In this document: positions 38,945 to 46,372 of the stretch, one piece after another
Layout: every line of letters starts with the position of its first letter
Numbering within the stretch: the first letter of the stretch is position 1
Origin: Salmonella phage vB_SenS-3
Sequence record: OR896822.1
Length of the DNA stretch: 64,000 nucleotides
Direction: 5' to 3' (one strand)
Translations under genes and position numbers: made by a program
Notes under the pieces: model-generated
Told to the model about the DNA's origin: nothing
Database searches by the model: none
The model's input: only the letters and a program-made list of their open reading frames with translations

Positions 38945-39919
38945 TTAGTCGTATACTCGCTCTACTATACAAGGGATTACACCACCAGCACGAATCACTC
39001 GAATCTGGCAACCGATCTCTAAATCGAGAGCGTTAATATAATCAACGTTATTAAGAGTTGCTTTAACGATTGTGGCATCATCAATAATCACCGGCTCGAA
39101 ATAACCAACTGGAGTTACTTTACCAGAAGCCCCTACTTGCCATTCAACTTTAACAAGTGTGGTAATTTCGCCTTCTTCATCCTCTTTAATAGCAAATGCA
39201 CCGCGAGGAAATTTATTAGTCCAACCTTCACGGAAGAATTTGTTGTTATCATTAATACGAACAACTTTACCATCCGTCGGAATCCACTTAAAGAAGGAAC
39301 GAACATTAACAACTGTCAAGAAGTTCTCATTCTCTAGCCAAAGCATATCTTTTAAATAGGCTTCTGTAATACCGACTGTTTCCGCTGAACACTGGATACC
39401 ATATGCAACGAAGATTAAACCACCTTCACCAATACGTTGCATGAAATCATCACTATCTTTCAGGTTAATAGCACCAGAAGCATAGTTACGTTTGTTCTCT
39501 ACTTCTTTAGTAATGAGAACTTCACCAGTGATTTGAGTTGGTACTTTTTGGGAAATAGTTTTGGGGATGTTCAGCATTTTAACATTATGCGTTACATCAT
39601 TCCCTAGAATACCGTTACCACGAGTTAACGCTTGAACAAACTCACCATTAATATATAATAGAGAAATCGCACAACCATCTAACTTATCAGTTTCAACCTG
39701 ACCAAGTGGGTTGAATGGAGCTTTATCACCACGATCGTAATAGACTTTCTGCAAAGAATACATACGATACAAATGAGGGATATCACCTTTCGGTCCGATT
39801 TCTTCCTCTAGTGGGAATCTTTTAATCAGACGATCATATTCTTCATCGGAAATAAGACTCATTCCCTGGTAGTACGCTTCTTGACAACGTTTAATAAAGT
39901 CTTTTACATTATTCATCAT
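38945..39919 (-). CDS. NAD-dependent DNA ligase, N-terminal part (adenylation + OB domains; subunit A)
   Basis: 324 aa; adenylation active-site motif KLDG (DKLDGCAISLLYING); ends exactly after the OB-fold region, where the zinc finger would follow. Confidence 0.8.
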   Translation of the reverse strand: MMNNVKDFIKRCQEAYYQGMSLISDEEYDRLIKRFPLEEEIGPKGDIPHLYRMYSLQKVYYDRGDKAPFNPLGQVETDKLDGCAISLLYINGEFVQALTRGNGILGNDVTHNVKMLNIPKTISQKVPTQITGEVLITKEVENKRNYASGAINLKDSDDFMQRIGEGGLIFVAYGIQCSAETVGITEAYLKDMLWLENENFLTVVNVRSFFKWIPTDGKVVRINDNNKFFREGWTNKFPRGAFAIKEDEEGEITTLVKVEWQVGASGKVTPVGYFEPVIIDDATIVKATLNNVDYINALDLEIGCQIRVIRAGGVIPCIVERVYD

Positions 39920-40109
39920 CTGCGATTTCCATTTTGAGTTCTTTATTATACTGAGCAGCCATACCAGCTAAATCAGCAGCTTCTTTTAACCACGCATCTT
40001 TGTACGCTTTCTGGTTTGGAGTGCCAGTATTGTCCTGATAATTGATCTTTGCTATGGAAAGCAAATTAAGTTTTGCTTGAATCTTTGGAAGTGTTATTGT
40101 CATTGCCAT
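39909..40109 (-). CDS. small hypothetical protein
   Basis: Start placed at ATG 40109 (MAMTITLPK) with GAGAGGA RBS directly after a T5-type promoter; ORF track start is 40127. Confidence 0.35.
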   Translation of the reverse strand: MAMTITLPKIQAKLNLLSIAKINYQDNTGTPNQKAYKDAWLKEAADLAGMAAQYNKELKMEIADDE

Positions 40110-40138
40110 AATTGATCCTCTCATCAATTTATATAAAT

Positions 40139-40167
40139 ATTATATATGAAAACTGAGTCGAAAGCAA
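40139..40167 (-). promoter_or_regulatory. T5 early-type promoter
   Basis: Minus strand TTGCTT-17-TATAAT followed by ATTTATATAAATTGATGAGAGG. Confidence 0.6.
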
Positions 40168-40194
40168 GTACATTTATAAAGAAAAAGCCAAGAA

Positions 40195-40503
40195 CTAGGC
40201 ATTCTTGGCTTTGAGTTCTTCAGCTCGTTTCTGTACTTCATGCAAGACCTCGGATTCACTGAGGATTTGCGTAAAAGCGTAGAATAGCTGTGACGTAGTT
40301 TCTAGGGTATAAGGAAAAGAGAAGCCGGATTTCGTTGGAAACCACTCTCCAGTAATATCTTGGAGCCAGTAACGAATTCCCATGTATAGATTCCCACGAA
40401 ATTCAGATACGGTTAGTCTTACTTGTTCTCCCTCCTTCTCCCAAAGCATGATGGACTGGTCGTCAACGTGTCCTTCATAGTTTTGATTTACCTGATCGCT
40501 CAT
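40195..40503 (-). CDS. small protein, possibly PC4-like ssDNA-binding fold
   Basis: 102 aa; segment VRLTVSEFRGNLYMGIRYW resembles the PC4/YdbC-type motif (vs...EFkGk.yidiReyw); from memory, unverified. Confidence 0.4.
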   Translation of the reverse strand: MSDQVNQNYEGHVDDQSIMLWEKEGEQVRLTVSEFRGNLYMGIRYWLQDITGEWFPTKSGFSFPYTLETTSQLFYAFTQILSESEVLHEVQKRAEELKAKNA

Positions 40504-40553
40504 TTACATATCCCAAATACACAAAAAGCCCCATATAGGGGCTAATTGGTTTC

Positions 40554-40850
40554 TTATCGGCCTACTGGAGAAGCACGATCTAACTCTGACTGGAGGCTCG
40601 TCACACGGCGAACTTTCGCAACAGGAATGAAACGGAAGCTATCATTAGTACGAGAGAAAACGAGGATTTCATCTTCTTTCGGCTTACGGATGCGCTCACG
40701 TTTAATACGCTCAGCCAGGTATTTATCCTGAGCTGGATCAAATTCCATCGTACCCTGAAGGTACGTGGTTCCTTTCTGACGAAGTTTTTCGTAATGAAGA
40801 TAAAACTCACCAAATTTTTCGCATTGAGCAATAATTTCAGCTTTATTCAT
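40554..40850 (-). CDS. hypothetical protein
   Basis: 98-aa ORF in early minus-strand operon. Confidence 0.4.
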   Translation of the reverse strand: MNKAEIIAQCEKFGEFYLHYEKLRQKGTTYLQGTMEFDPAQDKYLAERIKRERIRKPKEDEILVFSRTNDSFRFIPVAKVRRVTSLQSELDRASPVGR

Positions 40851-40886
40851 AACTGTATTCCTTGTGTTGGTGGATTTATCTAAGAA

Positions 40887-41297
40887 TTACTTAGTGATAG
40901 CTCGGATAGCTTCTGCCAGATGAGCAGCTGCTTTACCGGTCAGCTTGTCGATGATTGCGTAGTCCAGGAAGTCCGGGGCTAAGCCAGCATCAGAGAATGC
41001 AGAGCGAAGATCGGAGTGAGCCTGAGCTTTGGAAGTACGAGAACCACCAGAAGCTTTTTCTCCAGTAGATGCGCTTGATTTAGAAGTAGAGCCAGCAGCT
41101 TTCTTGATATACAGACCTGCTTTGGTCAGCTTCATACGAAAACCGTTCGGAGTTACACCATTTTCCTGAGCAATTTCGCTAACAATTTCCATGCTAACGC
41201 CCGGACGCTCATCCTCTGGGAATTGCTCCATACGAGCAACGTAGTCGGAAGACATTTTTTCGAACAGTTCATCAGTCCACTGAGTTGGAGTAGTCAT
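40887..41297 (-). CDS. hypothetical protein
   Basis: 136-aa ORF with a low-complexity Ser/Thr/Ala linker in the middle. Confidence 0.4.
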   Translation of the reverse strand: MTTPTQWTDELFEKMSSDYVARMEQFPEDERPGVSMEIVSEIAQENGVTPNGFRMKLTKAGLYIKKAAGSTSKSSASTGEKASGGSRTSKAQAHSDLRSAFSDAGLAPDFLDYAIIDKLTGKAAAHLAEAIRAITK

Positions 41298-41404
41298 ATT
41301 TTTCGATTTCCTTAATTAAGAATTAAACAGAATAGTTCTTTCAAACTATGAGAATATTATATCAATAATTACAGGATTAAGCAACTGAAATTTTTCAGTA
41401 ACTG

Positions 41405-41650
41405 CTACACATCTAGTTCAACGATCTCCCAATCGTCAGCCAGGGCTTCGTCTAGGGAGAGTTCTACCTCTTGCTTATACGCTCGCTTTACATCCTCAGC
41501 CGTATCGTTAGGTAATGGCACAAACCTTTTAACAGTATCGGCATCAACGTTAAACTCGAAAAGCATAGTAAATGTTTTACTATTTTCCCAGCAATCTCGC
41601 TGGAGATATTTTACGTCTCCAGCTTTTAACAGATCAGTTAGTTTACTCAC
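41405..41650 (-). CDS. hypothetical protein
   Basis: 81-aa acidic ORF overlapping upstream gene stop by 8 nt. Confidence 0.35.
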   Translation of the reverse strand: MSKLTDLLKAGDVKYLQRDCWENSKTFTMLFEFNVDADTVKRFVPLPNDTAEDVKRAYKQEVELSLDEALADDWEIVELDV

Positions 41651-42347
41651 GGCGTTTTCCTTTCTCTTTATCGAGTTTTAGGGCAGCTTTAACAGCTTCA
41701 TTAACCAACGTGATAACTTCTTCACGACTCCATTTAAAGCCCAGAGCCTTAACATCAACTCCCAGCTTTTCCAGATGTTTAACAGAGGCTAATTCGTAGT
41801 GCATATAGTGAACGTTCTGTTGTTTACCTTCTGATAACAACCAAACACGATAGCAACCAACTGGATTAGTCATTGCTTTCTTGATTTCACCAATACACTG
41901 ATAGCCAGGAACCCAAACAAGTTCACCAACTTCAAATTCTTCTGCCATCGCATCATCAGGAATCAGCGGTGGATTCAATGGATCAACAATATCGTTTAAA
42001 CGAAGCAAAGCACCATAACGTTCCAGAACAGATTTAATCATCGCTACAGAACGATAATTACGATCTGCGATTTCTTCAAAAGAATCACCAGAAAGATACT
42101 GTTCAATTACGTTTGCAAGCTCAACACCTTCAATCAGTGTTCCACGCTTCTTCTTTTTCATTTCCGCAACCTGAACCTGACGATCTCTCCATTCTTCAAT
42201 CATTCGTTCCATAGTTGGGTTAGAAGAAACACCGAGCATTTCACATGCTGCTTTCTTAGTACCACCATTCTCTAGATGTTCAATAACCTTTTTAAAGGTT
42301 TCATCAGGGATTTCATGGATAAGTTTCTTTCTACGAGAACCAGCCAT
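41643..42347 (-). CDS. putative HTH DNA-binding protein
   Basis: 234 aa; HTH-like segment GTKKAACEMLGVSSNPTMERMIEEW; driven by a promoter near-identical to the classical T5 PN25 promoter; GAGGAG RBS. Confidence 0.45.
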   Translation of the reverse strand: MAGSRRKKLIHEIPDETFKKVIEHLENGGTKKAACEMLGVSSNPTMERMIEEWRDRQVQVAEMKKKKRGTLIEGVELANVIEQYLSGDSFEEIADRNYRSVAMIKSVLERYGALLRLNDIVDPLNPPLIPDDAMAEEFEVGELVWVPGYQCIGEIKKAMTNPVGCYRVWLLSEGKQQNVHYMHYELASVKHLEKLGVDVKALGFKWSREEVITLVNEAVKAALKLDKEKGKRRE

Positions 42348-42378: not shown

Positions 42379-42407
42379 ATTATACAGAAAAATTTTCCTG
42401 AAAGCAA
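42379..42407 (-). promoter_or_regulatory. T5 PN25-like strong early promoter
   Basis: Minus strand TTGCTTTCAGGAAAATTTTTCTGTATAATAGATTCATAAATTTGAGAG, matching the PN25 promoter as I recall it. Confidence 0.7.
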
Positions 42408-42415
42408 ATAAATTT

Positions 42416-42874
42416 TTAAGCTGGATATAGCTCGGCTTTGAAAGCAGCTCTAACTTCTATGGCCTCTTCTAACGAATTGCATTGTTGGTACTTACGAGTA
42501 TTTCCTTTTTGCATAAGTACACAGTATTTTTCACCGCGCATATAGATATTAGATTCTCCTAACTTATTGTCCTTTCTCACATCTATATTATGCATTTGAT
42601 CAGATCTATTGGAATCTTCTAGATTCTCTATGAAATTACAATCCTTAATTCTGTTATTATGGTCTATCTCTTCAGGAATATATCCTTTATGATACAGAAA
42701 GACTAACTGATGTTCTCCCCATTTCTTGCCTTTGAAACCAATCCTGATATACCCTTTGTGCTTCCCACCCGCAAACTGCCCTATTAACCTCTTTTGGTTA
42801 GTTTTCCTCCATTTGAGGTGGCCAGTTTCTGAATCATATTCAAAGGCTTCTCTAACCTCTTCTTGAGTTATCAT
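42416..42874 (-). CDS. HNH homing endonuclease (paralog of 29766..30296)
   Basis: 152 aa; N-terminus MITQEEVREAFEYDSETGHLKW and HQLVFLYHKGYIPEEIDHNNRIKDCN align with the other HNH. Confidence 0.7.
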   Translation of the reverse strand: MITQEEVREAFEYDSETGHLKWRKTNQKRLIGQFAGGKHKGYIRIGFKGKKWGEHQLVFLYHKGYIPEEIDHNNRIKDCNFIENLEDSNRSDQMHNIDVRKDNKLGESNIYMRGEKYCVLMQKGNTRKYQQCNSLEEAIEVRAAFKAELYPA

Positions 42875-43103
42875 CTTCTTTAATTAATTCTCCTAATTCC
42901 TTATAAACACGTTCTAACTCAAAAGGGATACGTAAGGATATTCGTACCTTACGTTGTTTTAACAGCCATATAGATACGTTCGGAATACCAGCCAATCTGG
43001 GAGGGACCACTCGGCATAGTTTCTCCGCAGTATCGTAAACAGAAGTTTTCCGTTCTTTTACTGAAAACTTCCTTGTTTCCCACTTTTTATTCTTCGCTGT
43101 CAT
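42852..43103 (-). CDS. small hypothetical protein
   Basis: ATG at 43103 (MTAKNKKWETRKF...) overlapping the 3' end of the upstream gene; weak RBS. Confidence 0.2.
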   Translation of the reverse strand: MTAKNKKWETRKFSVKERKTSVYDTAEKLCRVVPPRLAGIPNVSIWLLKQRKVRISLRIPFELERVYKELGELIKEDDNSRRG

Positions 43104-45876
43104 TTCTAGCCCCCAATTCAGCAAGAGCTTCCTCATGCATCTGACGTTCTTCATCTGTCATAAACTTAACTGGAATCGGCATACATTCGATCTTACAGTA
43201 AGTTCTGTACCAGTCCACAATCTTTTCCGTATCCAGATCTTTACCGATACCCATCATGCCAAGATACATACGAGCATATTTTGGGTTAGCGCTCTGACCT
43301 GTCTTAAGGAAGAAATCCTTCTTCTTATTCTTAAGAGCTTCGATAAACGGTTTGATTGTTACGTTTGAACACTTTTTAATATCTTCCCAGAACATGTCGT
43401 GCATCTTATGGAAGAATGCAGCTCTATCGTTTGGTTTATCCTTGATATACTGTTCAACGTGTTCCACTGTTACATCTTTAATAGAATCCAGATGATAATA
43501 GCGAACCAGAAGTAACTTGGCTTCATAGGCATCTGCATGACGTGGTGCACAATATTCAGGAGTTGAGTGCAAAATAGCTTTGATTCGCTCTTCTGTATAC
43601 TCTTTGCCTGCACCTTCGATAGTCCCCCAGCTTTCACTGAAGATATCAATAGTTGCACCTTGATCGAGAAGATAATAACGCAAAGTACTGGTATAGTTTC
43701 TAGATTCCAGCTCACGACGGCGTGCGTACAGTTGCTGAGCTAACTCAATCCAACCCTCGTCAATATTATATTGCTCGGAACCAGCAGAGAATCCACTCGT
43801 AGATTTATCAATAAAATAATAAATGTTCTGAGCACCACGGTCGCGCCTGATTGCTTGAAAACGCATGTTTGGCGCTTGGTTTGAGGTTCTAGTGATTACG
43901 AATACGTTATCAAAATAGTTAAAGTCAACACCACTCGTTACAGATGGACTACATAACAAACAATCAATCTGTTGATCAATTAGCTCATTAGTTGTATAAT
44001 CCAGAATACGTCGGATATCTACATCAGACGTAGAGTTTGAGTGAATTTCTTTAACTAACGCACCAGTATTACGACGTAATGCCATTCCCTTCTCATTCAG
44101 TTCATCCGGGCCACAGTCAGATACTAGGATTGATTTCTCCCCCATCTCTAAAGATGTTTGAAGTGCAACCCAAATACTGGATTCATCAGGGAACTCATAT
44201 GCATGAGCTTTTGCCAGCATTTTACGGTGATGATTATAGAACGCGACCGGTTTATCAAAATCAATCAAAGAACCATAGGCTTCAATCGTTTCTGCACTGA
44301 TATCACCATCAGATAAGATAACCGTTTTTGCAGTAATAAGAATATCGCGAAGAACCTGAATACATTCACGACGGTTTTTAACAACCGGGGCGAATAACAG
44401 ATCATTCATTACTGCGTCACATTCATCAATAAAGATCGTATCAATCTGACCCACAAAGCTCTTGAACTTATGGATAGAGTGAATAGTTGAAGACATACGA
44501 TCAATAGCACCACGTTTGAAGTTCAGCATATCAACTGACTTATCATACTGACCAGCACCGAATTTCTTCGCGTTTGAAGATACAAGTGCCCTAGTATTTG
44601 TGATTGCAATAAAGTTTCCTGGAAGAACACCTGCATCTAGCCACTTAGTTACTGCTGTGGTTTTACCTGTACCAAGACTTGCCTTAACAAATGTTAAATG
44701 TCCTTTTGGGGGTACAATGTTAATCTTCAAGTATGGAACTTCTGGCGGTGAATCTGTGTCCAGACGCTTTAGTGGTACACCTTTTAAGTTGGGTGGAATC
44801 TCACGTTTGGAGTTATTCACAAAGGCTTTTAGAGCCTGCTTACGACCGTTATTAAAGTAATCTTGAATATTACGACTATTATCTTTAGTTGCAATATATT
44901 CAGATAAAGCTGGTTTAATCTCACGTTCTAACCACGTAAAGTCAACACCATCTTCTAACGCTCTGTGATAAAGTTTTGGGATAATACGCAGGTACACCCC
45001 ATCCTCAGCTTCTTCTAGTTCGCTGATGGTTTCTTCCACTTTATCAGATGCAGCTTTCTTGCCTTTAATTTGGTCAAGTAAGGAGTAGAATTCTTCTTTA
45101 AACTCACCTCTAGTTGTTTCAAAGTCAACTAGGTTATTGGGTAGATTCACTTTCGAACCCTTAACATACACAAGACGTGGTTTATTCTCCGCTTTAAACG
45201 GATCGACTATACCATCATCAAACAAGGGATCTGCGAAATAGTGAAGCTGAACAGAAGAATAATAAGCTAAGTCAGCAATATCAAAGCCATACTTTTGCTT
45301 ACTACTGTCATTGATAGATGTAAATAAGAACTTTAACTGTCCCTGCGTTACCTTGACATTAGATTCTAGCATTAAGTGCATTCGGATACCTGGTTTTAAT
45401 CCAGCCGAAGACGATGCATGGGCAATAAACCCTGCATCAAGAGGAAACATATCCTCACTAATACTATTCAACATCTTAATAATATGACGTGCCATGCCAA
45501 CAAGATTAAACTTGTCATAGCCACCAGTATCTACAATACCATCCACGTCCATAGCGATAATATGACTAGGATTGGATACGTTAAAGTTTCCTCTGGTACG
45601 ACGCACATTATCTTTTGGAGCTAGACATTTACCACGAATAGCTACAATATGCGGGTCTTTGGTAAGACGACGCATGATAGATAACATTTCAGCAAGGTTT
45701 TGCGGGTCAAGTTCTTCAAGTACATCAAATTTGAAGGGCATGGAAGCTGGTTTACCTTCTGGATGCTCTTTAGAGAATCGCTTTGCAAAGGTATAATCTT
45801 CCACTTTGATCTCTTTCCAGATGCCAGTGGCTTTATCTCTGGAAAATCCTGCGTGACCTTGTAGGATTGAGAACAC
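43087..45876 (-). CDS. putative primase-polymerase (AEP-like) / P-loop helicase fusion protein
   Basis: Start moved to GTG at 45876 with AGGAG RBS 7 nt upstream (ORF track ATG at 45999 has no RBS); N-terminal D-x-D motif HIIAMDVDG resembles AEP primase motif I; central Walker A SLGTGKTT and DExD-like IFIDECD. Confidence 0.6.
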   Translation of the reverse strand: MFSILQGHAGFSRDKATGIWKEIKVEDYTFAKRFSKEHPEGKPASMPFKFDVLEELDPQNLAEMLSIMRRLTKDPHIVAIRGKCLAPKDNVRRTRGNFNVSNPSHIIAMDVDGIVDTGGYDKFNLVGMARHIIKMLNSISEDMFPLDAGFIAHASSSAGLKPGIRMHLMLESNVKVTQGQLKFLFTSINDSSKQKYGFDIADLAYYSSVQLHYFADPLFDDGIVDPFKAENKPRLVYVKGSKVNLPNNLVDFETTRGEFKEEFYSLLDQIKGKKAASDKVEETISELEEAEDGVYLRIIPKLYHRALEDGVDFTWLEREIKPALSEYIATKDNSRNIQDYFNNGRKQALKAFVNNSKREIPPNLKGVPLKRLDTDSPPEVPYLKINIVPPKGHLTFVKASLGTGKTTAVTKWLDAGVLPGNFIAITNTRALVSSNAKKFGAGQYDKSVDMLNFKRGAIDRMSSTIHSIHKFKSFVGQIDTIFIDECDAVMNDLLFAPVVKNRRECIQVLRDILITAKTVILSDGDISAETIEAYGSLIDFDKPVAFYNHHRKMLAKAHAYEFPDESSIWVALQTSLEMGEKSILVSDCGPDELNEKGMALRRNTGALVKEIHSNSTSDVDIRRILDYTTNELIDQQIDCLLCSPSVTSGVDFNYFDNVFVITRTSNQAPNMRFQAIRRDRGAQNIYYFIDKSTSGFSAGSEQYNIDEGWIELAQQLYARRRELESRNYTSTLRYYLLDQGATIDIFSESWGTIEGAGKEYTEERIKAILHSTPEYCAPRHADAYEAKLLLVRYYHLDSIKDVTVEHVEQYIKDKPNDRAAFFHKMHDMFWEDIKKCSNVTIKPFIEALKNKKKDFFLKTGQSANPKYARMYLGMMGIGKDLDTEKIVDWYRTYCKIECMPIPVKFMTDEERQMHEEALAELGARNDSEE

Positions 45877-46372
45877 AACAATACTCCTATGTTGGTTATT
45901 CGAATATCTTTCTTTAGGACTATTCAAAAGAATAGAACAACTATTACTACCATTTACACAAACATTAATCATCATCAAGCAGTATGAATAAGTTATCATA
46001 CCTCAGTGCTGCGCTCTCTTAACTCTTATCCAGATCAGAACCTAGGTCATTGGCCGCTAAGCCGATTCTGATTGCCCTCACTATCCTATTGGTAGGTGGC
46101 TACTGGACGTGTCACCATTCGCTGCTCTTTTCGTTCGCACCCCCATATAAAGCTCTGCCTATATAACGAGCTAAATATGCACGGTTTGGATTTACCTTTC
46201 CGAATTCAGGGTACGCAGATCACTTAATTGATAATTAACTAATGCAGTATAAACACTAGTAATAGTTAAAACAACCCTTAATGGGGCAGCCTAACTGTTC
46301 CGTATTGCGGACTGTAAACAAGAAAAATTAGCAAAATCAATTTTTACTAATGTCTCTCAATTCAATATAAAT

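What the first reader, a model, noticed from the sequence alone, without database searches (positions are those of the whole stretch)
40195..40503. Small PC4-like ssDNA-binding candidate in a PN25-promoter-driven operon of unknown genes
Segment VRLTVSEFRGNLYMGIRYW resembles the conserved core of PC4/YdbC-type ssDNA-binding domains. It sits in a run of five small uncharacterised genes (40195-42347) transcribed from a PN25-like promoter, including an HTH protein. These are candidate host-takeover or transcription-modulating factors.
Basis: inference. Interest (0 to 1): 0.35.

Follow-up and report, generated by a model that had tools for sequence, protein, structure and literature searches.

The report
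Phage T5 PC4-like ssDNA-binding protein

Summary
The 102-aa ORF at 40195-40503 (minus strand) is real. It matches Pfam PC4 (PF02229) above the curated cut-off (E 1.5e-8, 34.5 bits against 25). It is 97/102 identical over its full length to PDB 4BG7, the crystal structure of the phage T5 PC4 homologue (T5.115). The window is a T5-like Salmonella/Escherichia phage (Demerecviridae), and the gene lies in the early replication module: origin-binding helicase, D3, this gene, ligase A/B, D5, D6 helicase, primase, polymerase, D10. Published work reads the T5 protein as the phage's replicative and recombination ssDNA-binding protein. It is not described as a host-takeover factor.

The PN25 promoter is truly present (42379-42407) and base-identical to the annotated T5 P-N25. 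The "five-gene PN25 operon" does not hold up, however. A second early promoter, PN26, lies at 41356-41384. A stable terminator-like hairpin (40527-40543) sits directly in front of the PC4-like gene, and another overlaps its stop codon. The gene is therefore most likely expressed by read-through from PN26.

Verdict: correct identification, already known, low interest.

Side leads:
- The 81-aa gene after PN25 is hypervariable, with a repeated but sub-threshold Tad2-like signal.
- The conserved 98-aa upstream neighbour has a WYL-like barrel fold.
- The 234-aa protein is labelled "helicase" in databases, apparently by mistake.

The parts
40195..40503 (-). PC4-like ssDNA-binding protein gene (102 aa), the orthologue of T5.115 and PDB 4BG7. 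The PC4 domain is residues 24-64 (nt 40312-40434). The N-terminus is acidic (6 D/E against 1 K/R in residues 1-24).
40527..40543 (-). GC-rich hairpin AGCCCC-TATAT-GGGGCT followed by UUUUUGUGUAUUU, between the 98-aa gene and the PC4-like gene. It looks like an intrinsic terminator or attenuator and is annotated as a putative terminator in T5.
   Evidence: 100% identical to T5; stem kept and loop changed in Klebsiella phage RCIP0070; dG -16.2 kcal/mol, z -3.6
40184..40212 (-). 12-bp hairpin plus U-tract that overlaps the stop codon of the PC4-like gene. It is the likely terminator of the PN26 transcription unit.
   Evidence: dG -15.9 kcal/mol, z -4.3. Analogous terminators follow the orthologues in the Klebsiella and Providencia phages.
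40554..40850 (-). 98-aa conserved protein (T5.114 orthologue, phrog_3696) that always lies directly upstream of the PC4-like gene. The predicted fold is a helix plus a small beta-barrel with WYL-like structural neighbours.
40887..41297 (-). 136-aa D3 orthologue (phrog_1725 'DNA binding protein'), the first gene after PN26.
   Evidence: 97% identical to T5 D3
41356..41384 (-). T5 early promoter PN26 orthologue (TTGCTT-17-TATAAT).
41405..41650 (-). 81-aa protein in the T5.112 slot. Its termini are conserved and its middle is hypervariable. It shows a sub-threshold similarity to Tad2-like (DUF2829).
41643..42347 (-). 234-aa protein (T5.111 orthologue) with weak N-terminal HTH matches. It is the first gene after PN25. 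It carries the database label 'helicase' but has no Walker A motif.
42379..42407 (-). T5 early promoter PN25 orthologue (TTGCTT-17-TATAAT), identical to the annotated T5 P-N25.
40139..40167 (-). Next early promoter (TTGCTT-17-TATAAT), downstream of the PC4-like gene. It drives the 72-aa ORF and ligA and marks the end of the unit.

Best explanation

By homology to 4BG7 and to the PC4 C-terminal domain, it folds as beta-beta-beta-beta-alpha plus an extra C-terminal helix. It forms a swapped homodimer whose two concave beta-sheets each hold one ssDNA strand through aromatic stacking and basic contacts. The candidate contact residues are F35, Y40 and W46 (aromatic) and R29, R36, R44 and K58 (basic).

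Its inferred role is to coat and stabilise unwound DNA at T5 replication forks and recombination intermediates, acting as the phage's replicative SSB during origin- and recombination-dependent replication.

It is an early gene. It is most likely transcribed from PN26 together with D3 and the 98-aa gene, by read-through of a conserved hairpin, and terminated at the hairpin that overlaps its stop codon.

What is shown here: sequence, family and structure identity; locus; promoters; hairpins; purifying selection. What is inferred or taken from the literature: ssDNA binding in vivo, the replicative role, and read-through transcription.
For: - Pfam PC4 match above the gathering score.
- 97/102 identical over the full length to PDB 4BG7.
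- phrog_4053, E 4e-54.
- Identical or near-identical proteins occur in several hundred T5-like phages, and orthologues at 47-63% identity occur in Klebsiella, Providencia, Proteus and Vibrio Demerecviridae.
- Columns invariant across the phage orthologues and the human PC4 C-terminal domain include F35 (PC4 F77), G37, R44 (PC4 R86), P56 and G60.
- Against T5, 22 codons differ synonymously and 5 non-synonymously. Three of the five lie in the 48-52 loop.
- The gene order from the origin-binding helicase through D3, T5.114, the PC4-like gene, ligA/ligB and D5 is conserved across genera, and downstream of D5 the window (ORF sizes) and the T5 record continue with D6 helicase, primase, polymerase and D10.
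- Held papers describe 4BG7 as the T5 PC4 homologue, SSB, or a protein proposed to promote recombination-dependent replication.
- Promoters and hairpins.
Against: - No biochemical or genetic data were generated here.
- Several held papers still call the T5 protein a 'predicted', 'putative' or 'much less characterized' SSB.
- PC4 W89 aligns with L47 rather than a tryptophan. W46 is adjacent, so the DNA-contact geometry need not be identical.
- A gene expected to be needed in stoichiometric amounts sits behind a terminator-like hairpin with no promoter of its own, which is unexpected for an abundant SSB.
- The absence of another SSB in the genome was not tested here. The window covers only part of the genome.
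Confidence: 0.85

Rival explanations
1. The protein is a transcription factor or coactivator, as its RefSeq and PHROG label 'transcriptional regulator' and its PC4 ancestry suggest. It would bind melted promoter DNA to modulate early or late phage transcription by the host RNA polymerase.
For: The family founder, PC4, is a Pol II coactivator, and the database labels follow it. An unrelated phage ssDNA-binding protein (Drc of N4-like phages) acts as an RNA polymerase cofactor and was compared with 4BG7. T5 D5, three genes downstream in T5, couples replication and late transcription (annotation note).
Against: The labels are name transfers from the Pfam family, not experiments. The gene is embedded in the replication and recombination module in every genus sampled. 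The protein lacks the regulatory N-terminal region of PC4 and matches only the ssDNA-binding core. The primary literature title implicates it in recombination-dependent replication.
Confidence: 0.08
2. The protein is a host-takeover or anti-defence factor, for example a DNA-topology modifier like the PC4-fold nickase AcrIIA22, rather than a replication protein.
For: AcrIIA22's closest structural relative is 4BG7. The adjacent PN25 unit contains a hypervariable gene with a weak Tad2-like signal.
Against: Unlike anti-defence genes, this gene is highly conserved (>=95% identity in about 395 phage records) and is a core, syntenic gene under purifying selection. AcrIIA22 lacks the C-terminal helix and shares only 15% matched residues. 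T5 host takeover is attributed to pre-early genes elsewhere in the genome (established T5 biology, from my own knowledge).
Confidence: 0.04

Closest known systems
Bacteriophage T5 PC4 homologue (T5.115, YP_006943; PDB 4BG7; Steigemann, Schulz & Werten, J Mol Biol 2013; Werten, Bacteriophage 2013)
   Same: Same length (102 aa) and 97/102 identical. Same position between T5.114 and ligA. Identical flanking hairpins and promoters.
   Different: Five substitutions: D3E, M19I, Q48L, T51N and G52D. The host-range clade differs, being Salmonella Epseptimavirus-like rather than T5 itself. An extra 72-aa ORF lies between the downstream promoter and ligA.
Human PC4 C-terminal domain / yeast Sub1 (Pfam PF02229; PDB 1PCF, 2C62)
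   Same: Same Pfam family. Shared F77/F35, K78/R36, G79/G37, R86/R44, P98/P56, R100/K58 and G102/G60. It is a dimeric ssDNA-binding fold.
   Different: Only about 25-30% identity. It has no lysine/serine-rich N-terminal regulatory region, has an additional C-terminal helix, and aligns PC4 W89 with L47. The context is a phage replication module, not Pol II coactivation.
Bacterial PC4-like proteins (BPSL1147, PDB 5A4N; YdbC/DUF2128, PDB 2LTT; SP_0782)
   Same: Small homodimeric PC4-fold ssDNA binders. BPSL1147 is the next-best PDB sequence hit (E 0.042).
   Different: The sequence similarity is marginal.
Classical OB-fold phage SSBs (T4 gp32, T7 gp2.5, E. coli SSB)
   Same: The proposed job is the same: coating ssDNA at forks and recombination intermediates. 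Like them it has an acidic terminal segment, but here it is N-terminal (the function is from the literature).
   Different: The fold is unrelated (PC4 fold against OB fold). It is a dimer with two antiparallel ssDNA channels.

Membership tests
PC4 / Sub1 ssDNA-binding domain family (Pfam PF02229) | Profile match at or above the curated gathering score | tested here: met
   34.5 bits against a cut-off of 25, E 1.5e-8, residues 24-64
PC4 / Sub1 ssDNA-binding domain family (Pfam PF02229) | Four-stranded antiparallel sheet plus helix that forms a swapped homodimer | tested here: met
   No new model was made. The protein is 97/102 identical over its full length to the solved chain 4BG7. The review PMC7549692 describes that structure as a type II PC4-like dimer with beta4-alpha-alpha topology.
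PC4 / Sub1 ssDNA-binding domain family (Pfam PF02229) | Conservation of ssDNA-contact residues (PC4 F77, R86, W89 and basic residues) | tested here: inconclusive
   F35 (=F77) and R44 (=R86) are invariant in all phage orthologues and PC4. PC4 W89 aligns with L47, with W46 adjacent. The identity of the PC4 contact residues comes from my own knowledge.
PC4 / Sub1 ssDNA-binding domain family (Pfam PF02229) | Binds ssDNA or unwound DNA in vitro | not testable with these tools
   Needs EMSA or fluorescence anisotropy with the purified protein.
Orthologue of T5.115 (Demerecviridae core replication-module gene) | Near-identical sequence and conserved synteny (D3, T5.114, PC4-like gene, ligA) | tested here: met
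   95% aa identity to T5, with the same neighbours and flanking regulatory elements. Synteny holds in the Klebsiella, Providencia, Vibrio and Proteus phages.
   Identical to the annotated T5 P-N25 across the whole promoter from the upstream A/T tract to the RBS, apart from a 1-nt indel just before the start codon.
   The PN26 orthologue lies at 41356-41384. A terminator-like hairpin at 40527-40543 is annotated as a terminator in T5.
Tad2 / DUF2829 (Pfam PF11195), considered for the neighbouring 81-aa gene | Profile match above the gathering score, or a fold match to solved Tad2 structures | tested here: not met
   16 of 21 family members hit PF11195, but all are below 25 bits (best E 1.7e-4). 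Foldseek against the PDB finds no Tad2 (model pLDDT 69.5). hhalign against real Tad2 chains aligns only the C-terminal 14 residues, with probability 37%.
WYL domain (Sm/SH3-like ligand-sensing barrel), considered for the neighbouring 98-aa gene | Sequence profile match or significant fold match | tested here: inconclusive
   No Pfam WYL hit in any of 19 members. Foldseek against the PDB gives BrxR WYL as best hit at E 0.011, TM 0.52. BFVD gives 'WYL domain containing protein' at E 3.5e-4. The model has pLDDT 91.

The most novel reading that the evidence does not exclude
The known PC4-like SSB may not act alone. It may form a conserved two-gene module with the uncharacterised 98-aa T5.114 protein. 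In distant genera the two genes overlap by 17-20 nt, which suggests translational coupling. T5.114 is predicted with high confidence to be a small WYL-like barrel, and WYL domains sense ssDNA in CapW, DriD and PafBC. T5.114 could therefore be an SSB mediator or loader, or an ssDNA-sensing partner, with the conserved intergenic hairpin setting the ratio of the two proteins. Separately, the hypervariable 81-aa gene expressed from the strong PN25 promoter could be a divergent Tad2-type immune-signal sponge.
Probability: 0.15. Interest if true: 0.45.

Novelty: already known. Interest (0 to 1): 0.1.

Why it matters
For the finding itself, little changes. It re-identifies a protein whose structure and likely role were published in 2013 and which is present, near-identical, in hundreds of sequenced T5-like phages.

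Three practical points follow:
1. The widespread label 'transcriptional regulator' for this gene is a name transfer from PC4. 'PC4-like ssDNA-binding protein' would be more accurate.
2. The classic PN25 promoter does not drive this gene directly.
3. Three neighbours remain truly uncharacterised: the WYL-like T5.114, the hypervariable T5.112 slot, and the 234-aa HTH protein labelled 'helicase', apparently by mistake. These are better targets for future work than the PC4-like gene.

Tried and rejected
1. The generic sigma-70 scan missed the T5 early promoters because their -35 hexamer is TTGCTT. A dedicated pattern found 13 in the window against 0.16 expected.
2. I looked for a dedicated promoter between the 98-aa gene and the PC4-like gene, by scan and by eye. 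None was found.
3. NCBIfam gave no hits for any of the six small proteins.
4. PDB sequence searches for the 81-aa, 234-aa, 136-aa and 98-aa proteins gave only chance or low-complexity hits.
5. The Tad2 hypothesis for the 81-aa protein was tested several ways:
   - Pfam on all family members stayed sub-threshold.
   - The profile against the PDB found nothing.
   - AF2 plus Foldseek found no Tad2.
   - An exhaustive profile search of 1.84 billion proteins found only 7 proteins and no bridge to DUF2829.
   - hhalign against genuine Tad2 chains matched only the C-terminal motif.
   The hypothesis is kept as an unconfirmed lead, not a claim.
6. An Rfam scan of 38.5-43.5 kb found nothing near threshold.
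7. The primary papers, Steigemann 2013 and Werten 2013, are not held in the library. Their content is cited through papers that quote them and, where stated, from memory.
8. A literature search for T5 transcript mapping found nothing usable.
9. I ran no further search on the PC4-like protein itself, because a 95%-identical crystal structure exists.

Full report
**1. The observation**

The minus-strand ORF at 40195-40503 encodes 102 aa. The quoted segment VRLTVSEFRGNLYMGIRYW is residues 28-46 (nt 40366-40422). Small ORFs on the opposite strand (32-40 aa) have no support.

The similarity to PC4 is statistically solid. Pfam PF02229 (PC4) scores 34.5 bits against a gathering score of 25, with E 1.5e-8, aligning residues 24-64 to profile positions 3-42 of 52. 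PHROGs places the protein in phrog_4053 at E 4e-54.

**2. What it is**

The window is a T5-like phage. The 2.5-kb region is 95-98% identical in nucleotides to Salmonella Epseptimavirus genomes such as Sepoy, and it matches more than 400 Demerecviridae records.

A search of PDB sequences returns 4BG7, a 102-aa chain deposited as 'putative transcriptional coactivator p15', at E 6e-63 with 97/102 identities over the full length. [quoted passage not shown] Neither paper is held in the library. They are cited and summarised in held papers:
- The PC4-fold review describes 4BG7 as a type II swapped dimer with 25% identity to PC4 and an additional C-terminal helix.
- One paper calls it the 'SSB in bacteriophage T5'.
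- One lists critical DNA-binding residues, including Y40, R29 and W46.

In the T5 RefSeq record the gene is T5.115.

**3. Conservation**

A tblastn search finds the protein in 903 phage records, about 395 of them at 95% identity or more. Orthologues at 47-63% identity occur in Klebsiella, Providencia, Proteus and Vibrio Demerecviridae.

In an alignment with the human PC4 C-terminal domain, the invariant columns are F35 (PC4 F77), G37, R44 (PC4 R86), D49, P56 and G60. PC4 W89 aligns with L47, and W46 is adjacent.

Against T5, 22 codons differ synonymously and only 5 non-synonymously (D3E, M19I, Q48L, T51N, G52D). Three of these fall in one loop, which indicates purifying selection. The protein is acidic (pI 4.7) with an acidic N-terminal 24 residues.

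**4. Context**

On the minus strand, in the direction of transcription, the order is:
- the 970-aa origin-binding helicase (43087-45999);
- an HNH endonuclease;
- PN25;
- the 234-aa HTH protein;
- the 81-aa protein;
- PN26;
- D3;
- the 98-aa protein;
- a hairpin;
- the PC4-like gene, with a hairpin overlapping its stop codon;
- a promoter;
- the 72-aa ORF;
- ligA, ligB, D5, the D6 helicase, primase, DNA polymerase and D10.

This is the early DNA-replication module. It is not the pre-early host-shutoff region (the location of pre-early functions is established T5 biology, from my own knowledge). The core order from the origin-binding helicase through D3, T5.114, the PC4-like gene, ligA/ligB and D5 recurs in the Klebsiella and Providencia phages, and from the helicase to ligA in Vibrio phage Quinn. 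Partial loci from Proteus PM135 and Vibrio D420 are consistent with it.

**5. Transcription units**

T5 early promoters use TTGCTT as the -35 hexamer, so the generic scan missed them. The pattern TTGCT-N16-18-TATAAT occurs 13 times in the window against 0.16 expected.

The site at 42379-42407 is base-identical to the annotated T5 'P-N 25' across the whole promoter, from the upstream A/T tract to the ribosome-binding site, apart from a 1-nt indel just before the start codon.

A second site at 41356-41384 matches the annotated 'P-N 26' in front of D3. A third, at 40139-40167, lies downstream of the PC4-like gene.

Two stable hairpins flank the gene:
- 40527-40543: 6-bp GC stem, dG -16.2 kcal/mol, z -3.6, followed by UUUUUGUGUAUUU.
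- 40184-40212: 12-bp stem, dG -15.9 kcal/mol, z -4.3, followed by a U-tract.

Both are 100% identical in T5, where the first is annotated as a putative rho-independent terminator. In Klebsiella phage RCIP0070 the first hairpin keeps its stem and changes its loop. In Providencia PR1 it is absent. In Vibrio phage Quinn and Proteus PM135 the annotated PC4-like gene overlaps the upstream gene by 17-20 nt.

I found no promoter in the 50-nt spacer or in the end of the upstream gene. The best reading is that the gene belongs to the PN26 unit (D3, the 98-aa gene and the PC4-like gene) and is reached by read-through of an attenuating hairpin. This is inference; no transcript data were found. The 'five-gene PN25 operon' is therefore not supported as stated.

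**6. Mechanism**

By homology, the protein is a swapped homodimer with two concave beta-sheet channels. These hold ssDNA through aromatic stacking (F35, Y40, W46) and basic contacts (R29, R36, R44, K58). It stabilises unwound DNA at forks and recombination intermediates.

The rival reading of a true transcription factor rests only on the family name and on labels transferred from it. The rival reading of an anti-defence or takeover factor conflicts with the gene's strong conservation and core synteny.

I give 0.85 to the SSB reading, 0.08 to a transcription cofactor and 0.04 to takeover or anti-defence.

**7. The other four genes (side findings)**

(a) The 234-aa protein is labelled 'D2 / helicase' in RefSeq and PHROGs. 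The experimentally characterised T5 'D2' bipolar helicase is a 2787-bp ORF with its Walker A motif at residues 399-406. That corresponds to the 970-aa ORF here, which has a Walker A motif at residue 440. The 234-aa protein has none and shows only weak HTH hits. The label looks like a gene-name collision.

(b) The 81-aa protein is only 34% identical to T5.112, while all its neighbours are 94-97% identical. The family has near-invariant termini and a hypervariable 40-residue middle. Only 10 of 437 phage records are at least 95% identical. Sixteen of 21 members, and T5.112 itself, hit Pfam Tad2-like (DUF2829), always below threshold. The AF2 model (pLDDT 69.5) has an N-terminal helix followed by a beta-sheet, which is consistent with the published Tad2 topology. 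Even so, Foldseek, the exhaustive profile search and hhalign against real Tad2 chains did not confirm the relationship. It remains unconfirmed.

(c) The 98-aa protein is conserved next to the PC4-like gene in every genus sampled. It models confidently (pLDDT 91.3). Its best structural neighbours are WYL domains: BrxR, PafBC, CapW and DriD in the PDB at E about 0.01, and phage 'WYL domain containing' proteins in BFVD at E 3.5e-4. There is no sequence-level WYL signal.

(d) D3 remains a 'DNA binding protein' by label only.

**8. Verdict**

The identification is correct. The object is already known: it has a solved structure, a published interpretation, and near-identical copies in hundreds of genomes. 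The operon and host-takeover parts of the interpretation are not supported. Interest is low (0.1). The neighbouring uncharacterised genes are the only place where something new might be found.

Noticed in passing
window 41643-42347 (-) and 43087-45999 (-): The 234-aa HTH protein is labelled 'D2 / helicase' in RefSeq T5 and phrog_3611. The published T5 D2 bipolar helicase (Wong et al. 2013, PMC3632103) is the 928-aa origin-binding protein, which is the 970-aa ORF here (Walker A at residue 440). The 234-aa protein has no Walker A motif. This is a likely annotation carry-over from two conflicting uses of the gene name D2.
   Followed up: partly
window 41405-41650 (-): The 81-aa gene in the T5.112 slot is hypervariable: 34% identity to T5 while its neighbours are 94-97% identical. 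It has invariant termini and a variable middle. It shows a recurrent sub-threshold Pfam Tad2-like (DUF2829) signal in 16 of 21 family members. Fold search, exhaustive profile search and hhalign did not confirm the relationship.
   Followed up: yes
window 40554-40850 (-): The 98-aa T5.114 orthologue always lies immediately upstream of the PC4-like gene, and the annotated genes overlap in Vibrio phage Quinn and Proteus phage PM135. Its AF2 model is confident (pLDDT 91). Its best structural neighbours are WYL domains (BrxR, CapW, DriD, PafBC, and stand-alone phage WYL proteins at E 3.5e-4 in BFVD). No Pfam WYL hit was found.
   Followed up: partly
window 40527-40543 (-): A terminator-like hairpin lies directly in front of a gene that is presumably needed in abundance and has no promoter of its own. 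It is 100% conserved in T5. Its stem is conserved and its loop changed in a Klebsiella phage. It is absent in the Providencia and Vibrio relatives. It may act as an attenuator or an mRNA-stability element.
   Followed up: partly
window 39909-40127 (-): A 72-aa ORF (phrog_8267, unknown function) lies between the early promoter at 40139-40167 and ligA. It is absent from T5, where ligA follows the promoter directly. Other genera carry different small genes in this slot.
   Followed up: no
window 42416-42874 (-): An HNH homing-endonuclease gene (Pfam HNH_3, E 1.9e-9) is inserted just upstream of PN25. It is present in some close relatives (Sw2, SmurfNell) and absent from others (Sepoy), which is typical mobile HNH mosaicism in T5-like phages.
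   Followed up: no
L006 (Aeromonas phage vB_AdhS_TS3) 2935-3114 and 3074-4156: The PC4-like ORF is cut to 59 aa, and the remainder runs in another frame into an N-terminally extended ligA ORF. The gene is not annotated there. This is either a frameshift or sequencing error, or a truly disrupted gene.
   Followed up: no
whole window: Thirteen TTGCT-N16-18-TATAAT sites occur against 0.16 expected. They are on the minus strand from 38.7 to 49.7 kb and on the plus strand from 51.9 kb onward, which marks a divergent switch of early transcription near 50-52 kb.
   Followed up: no
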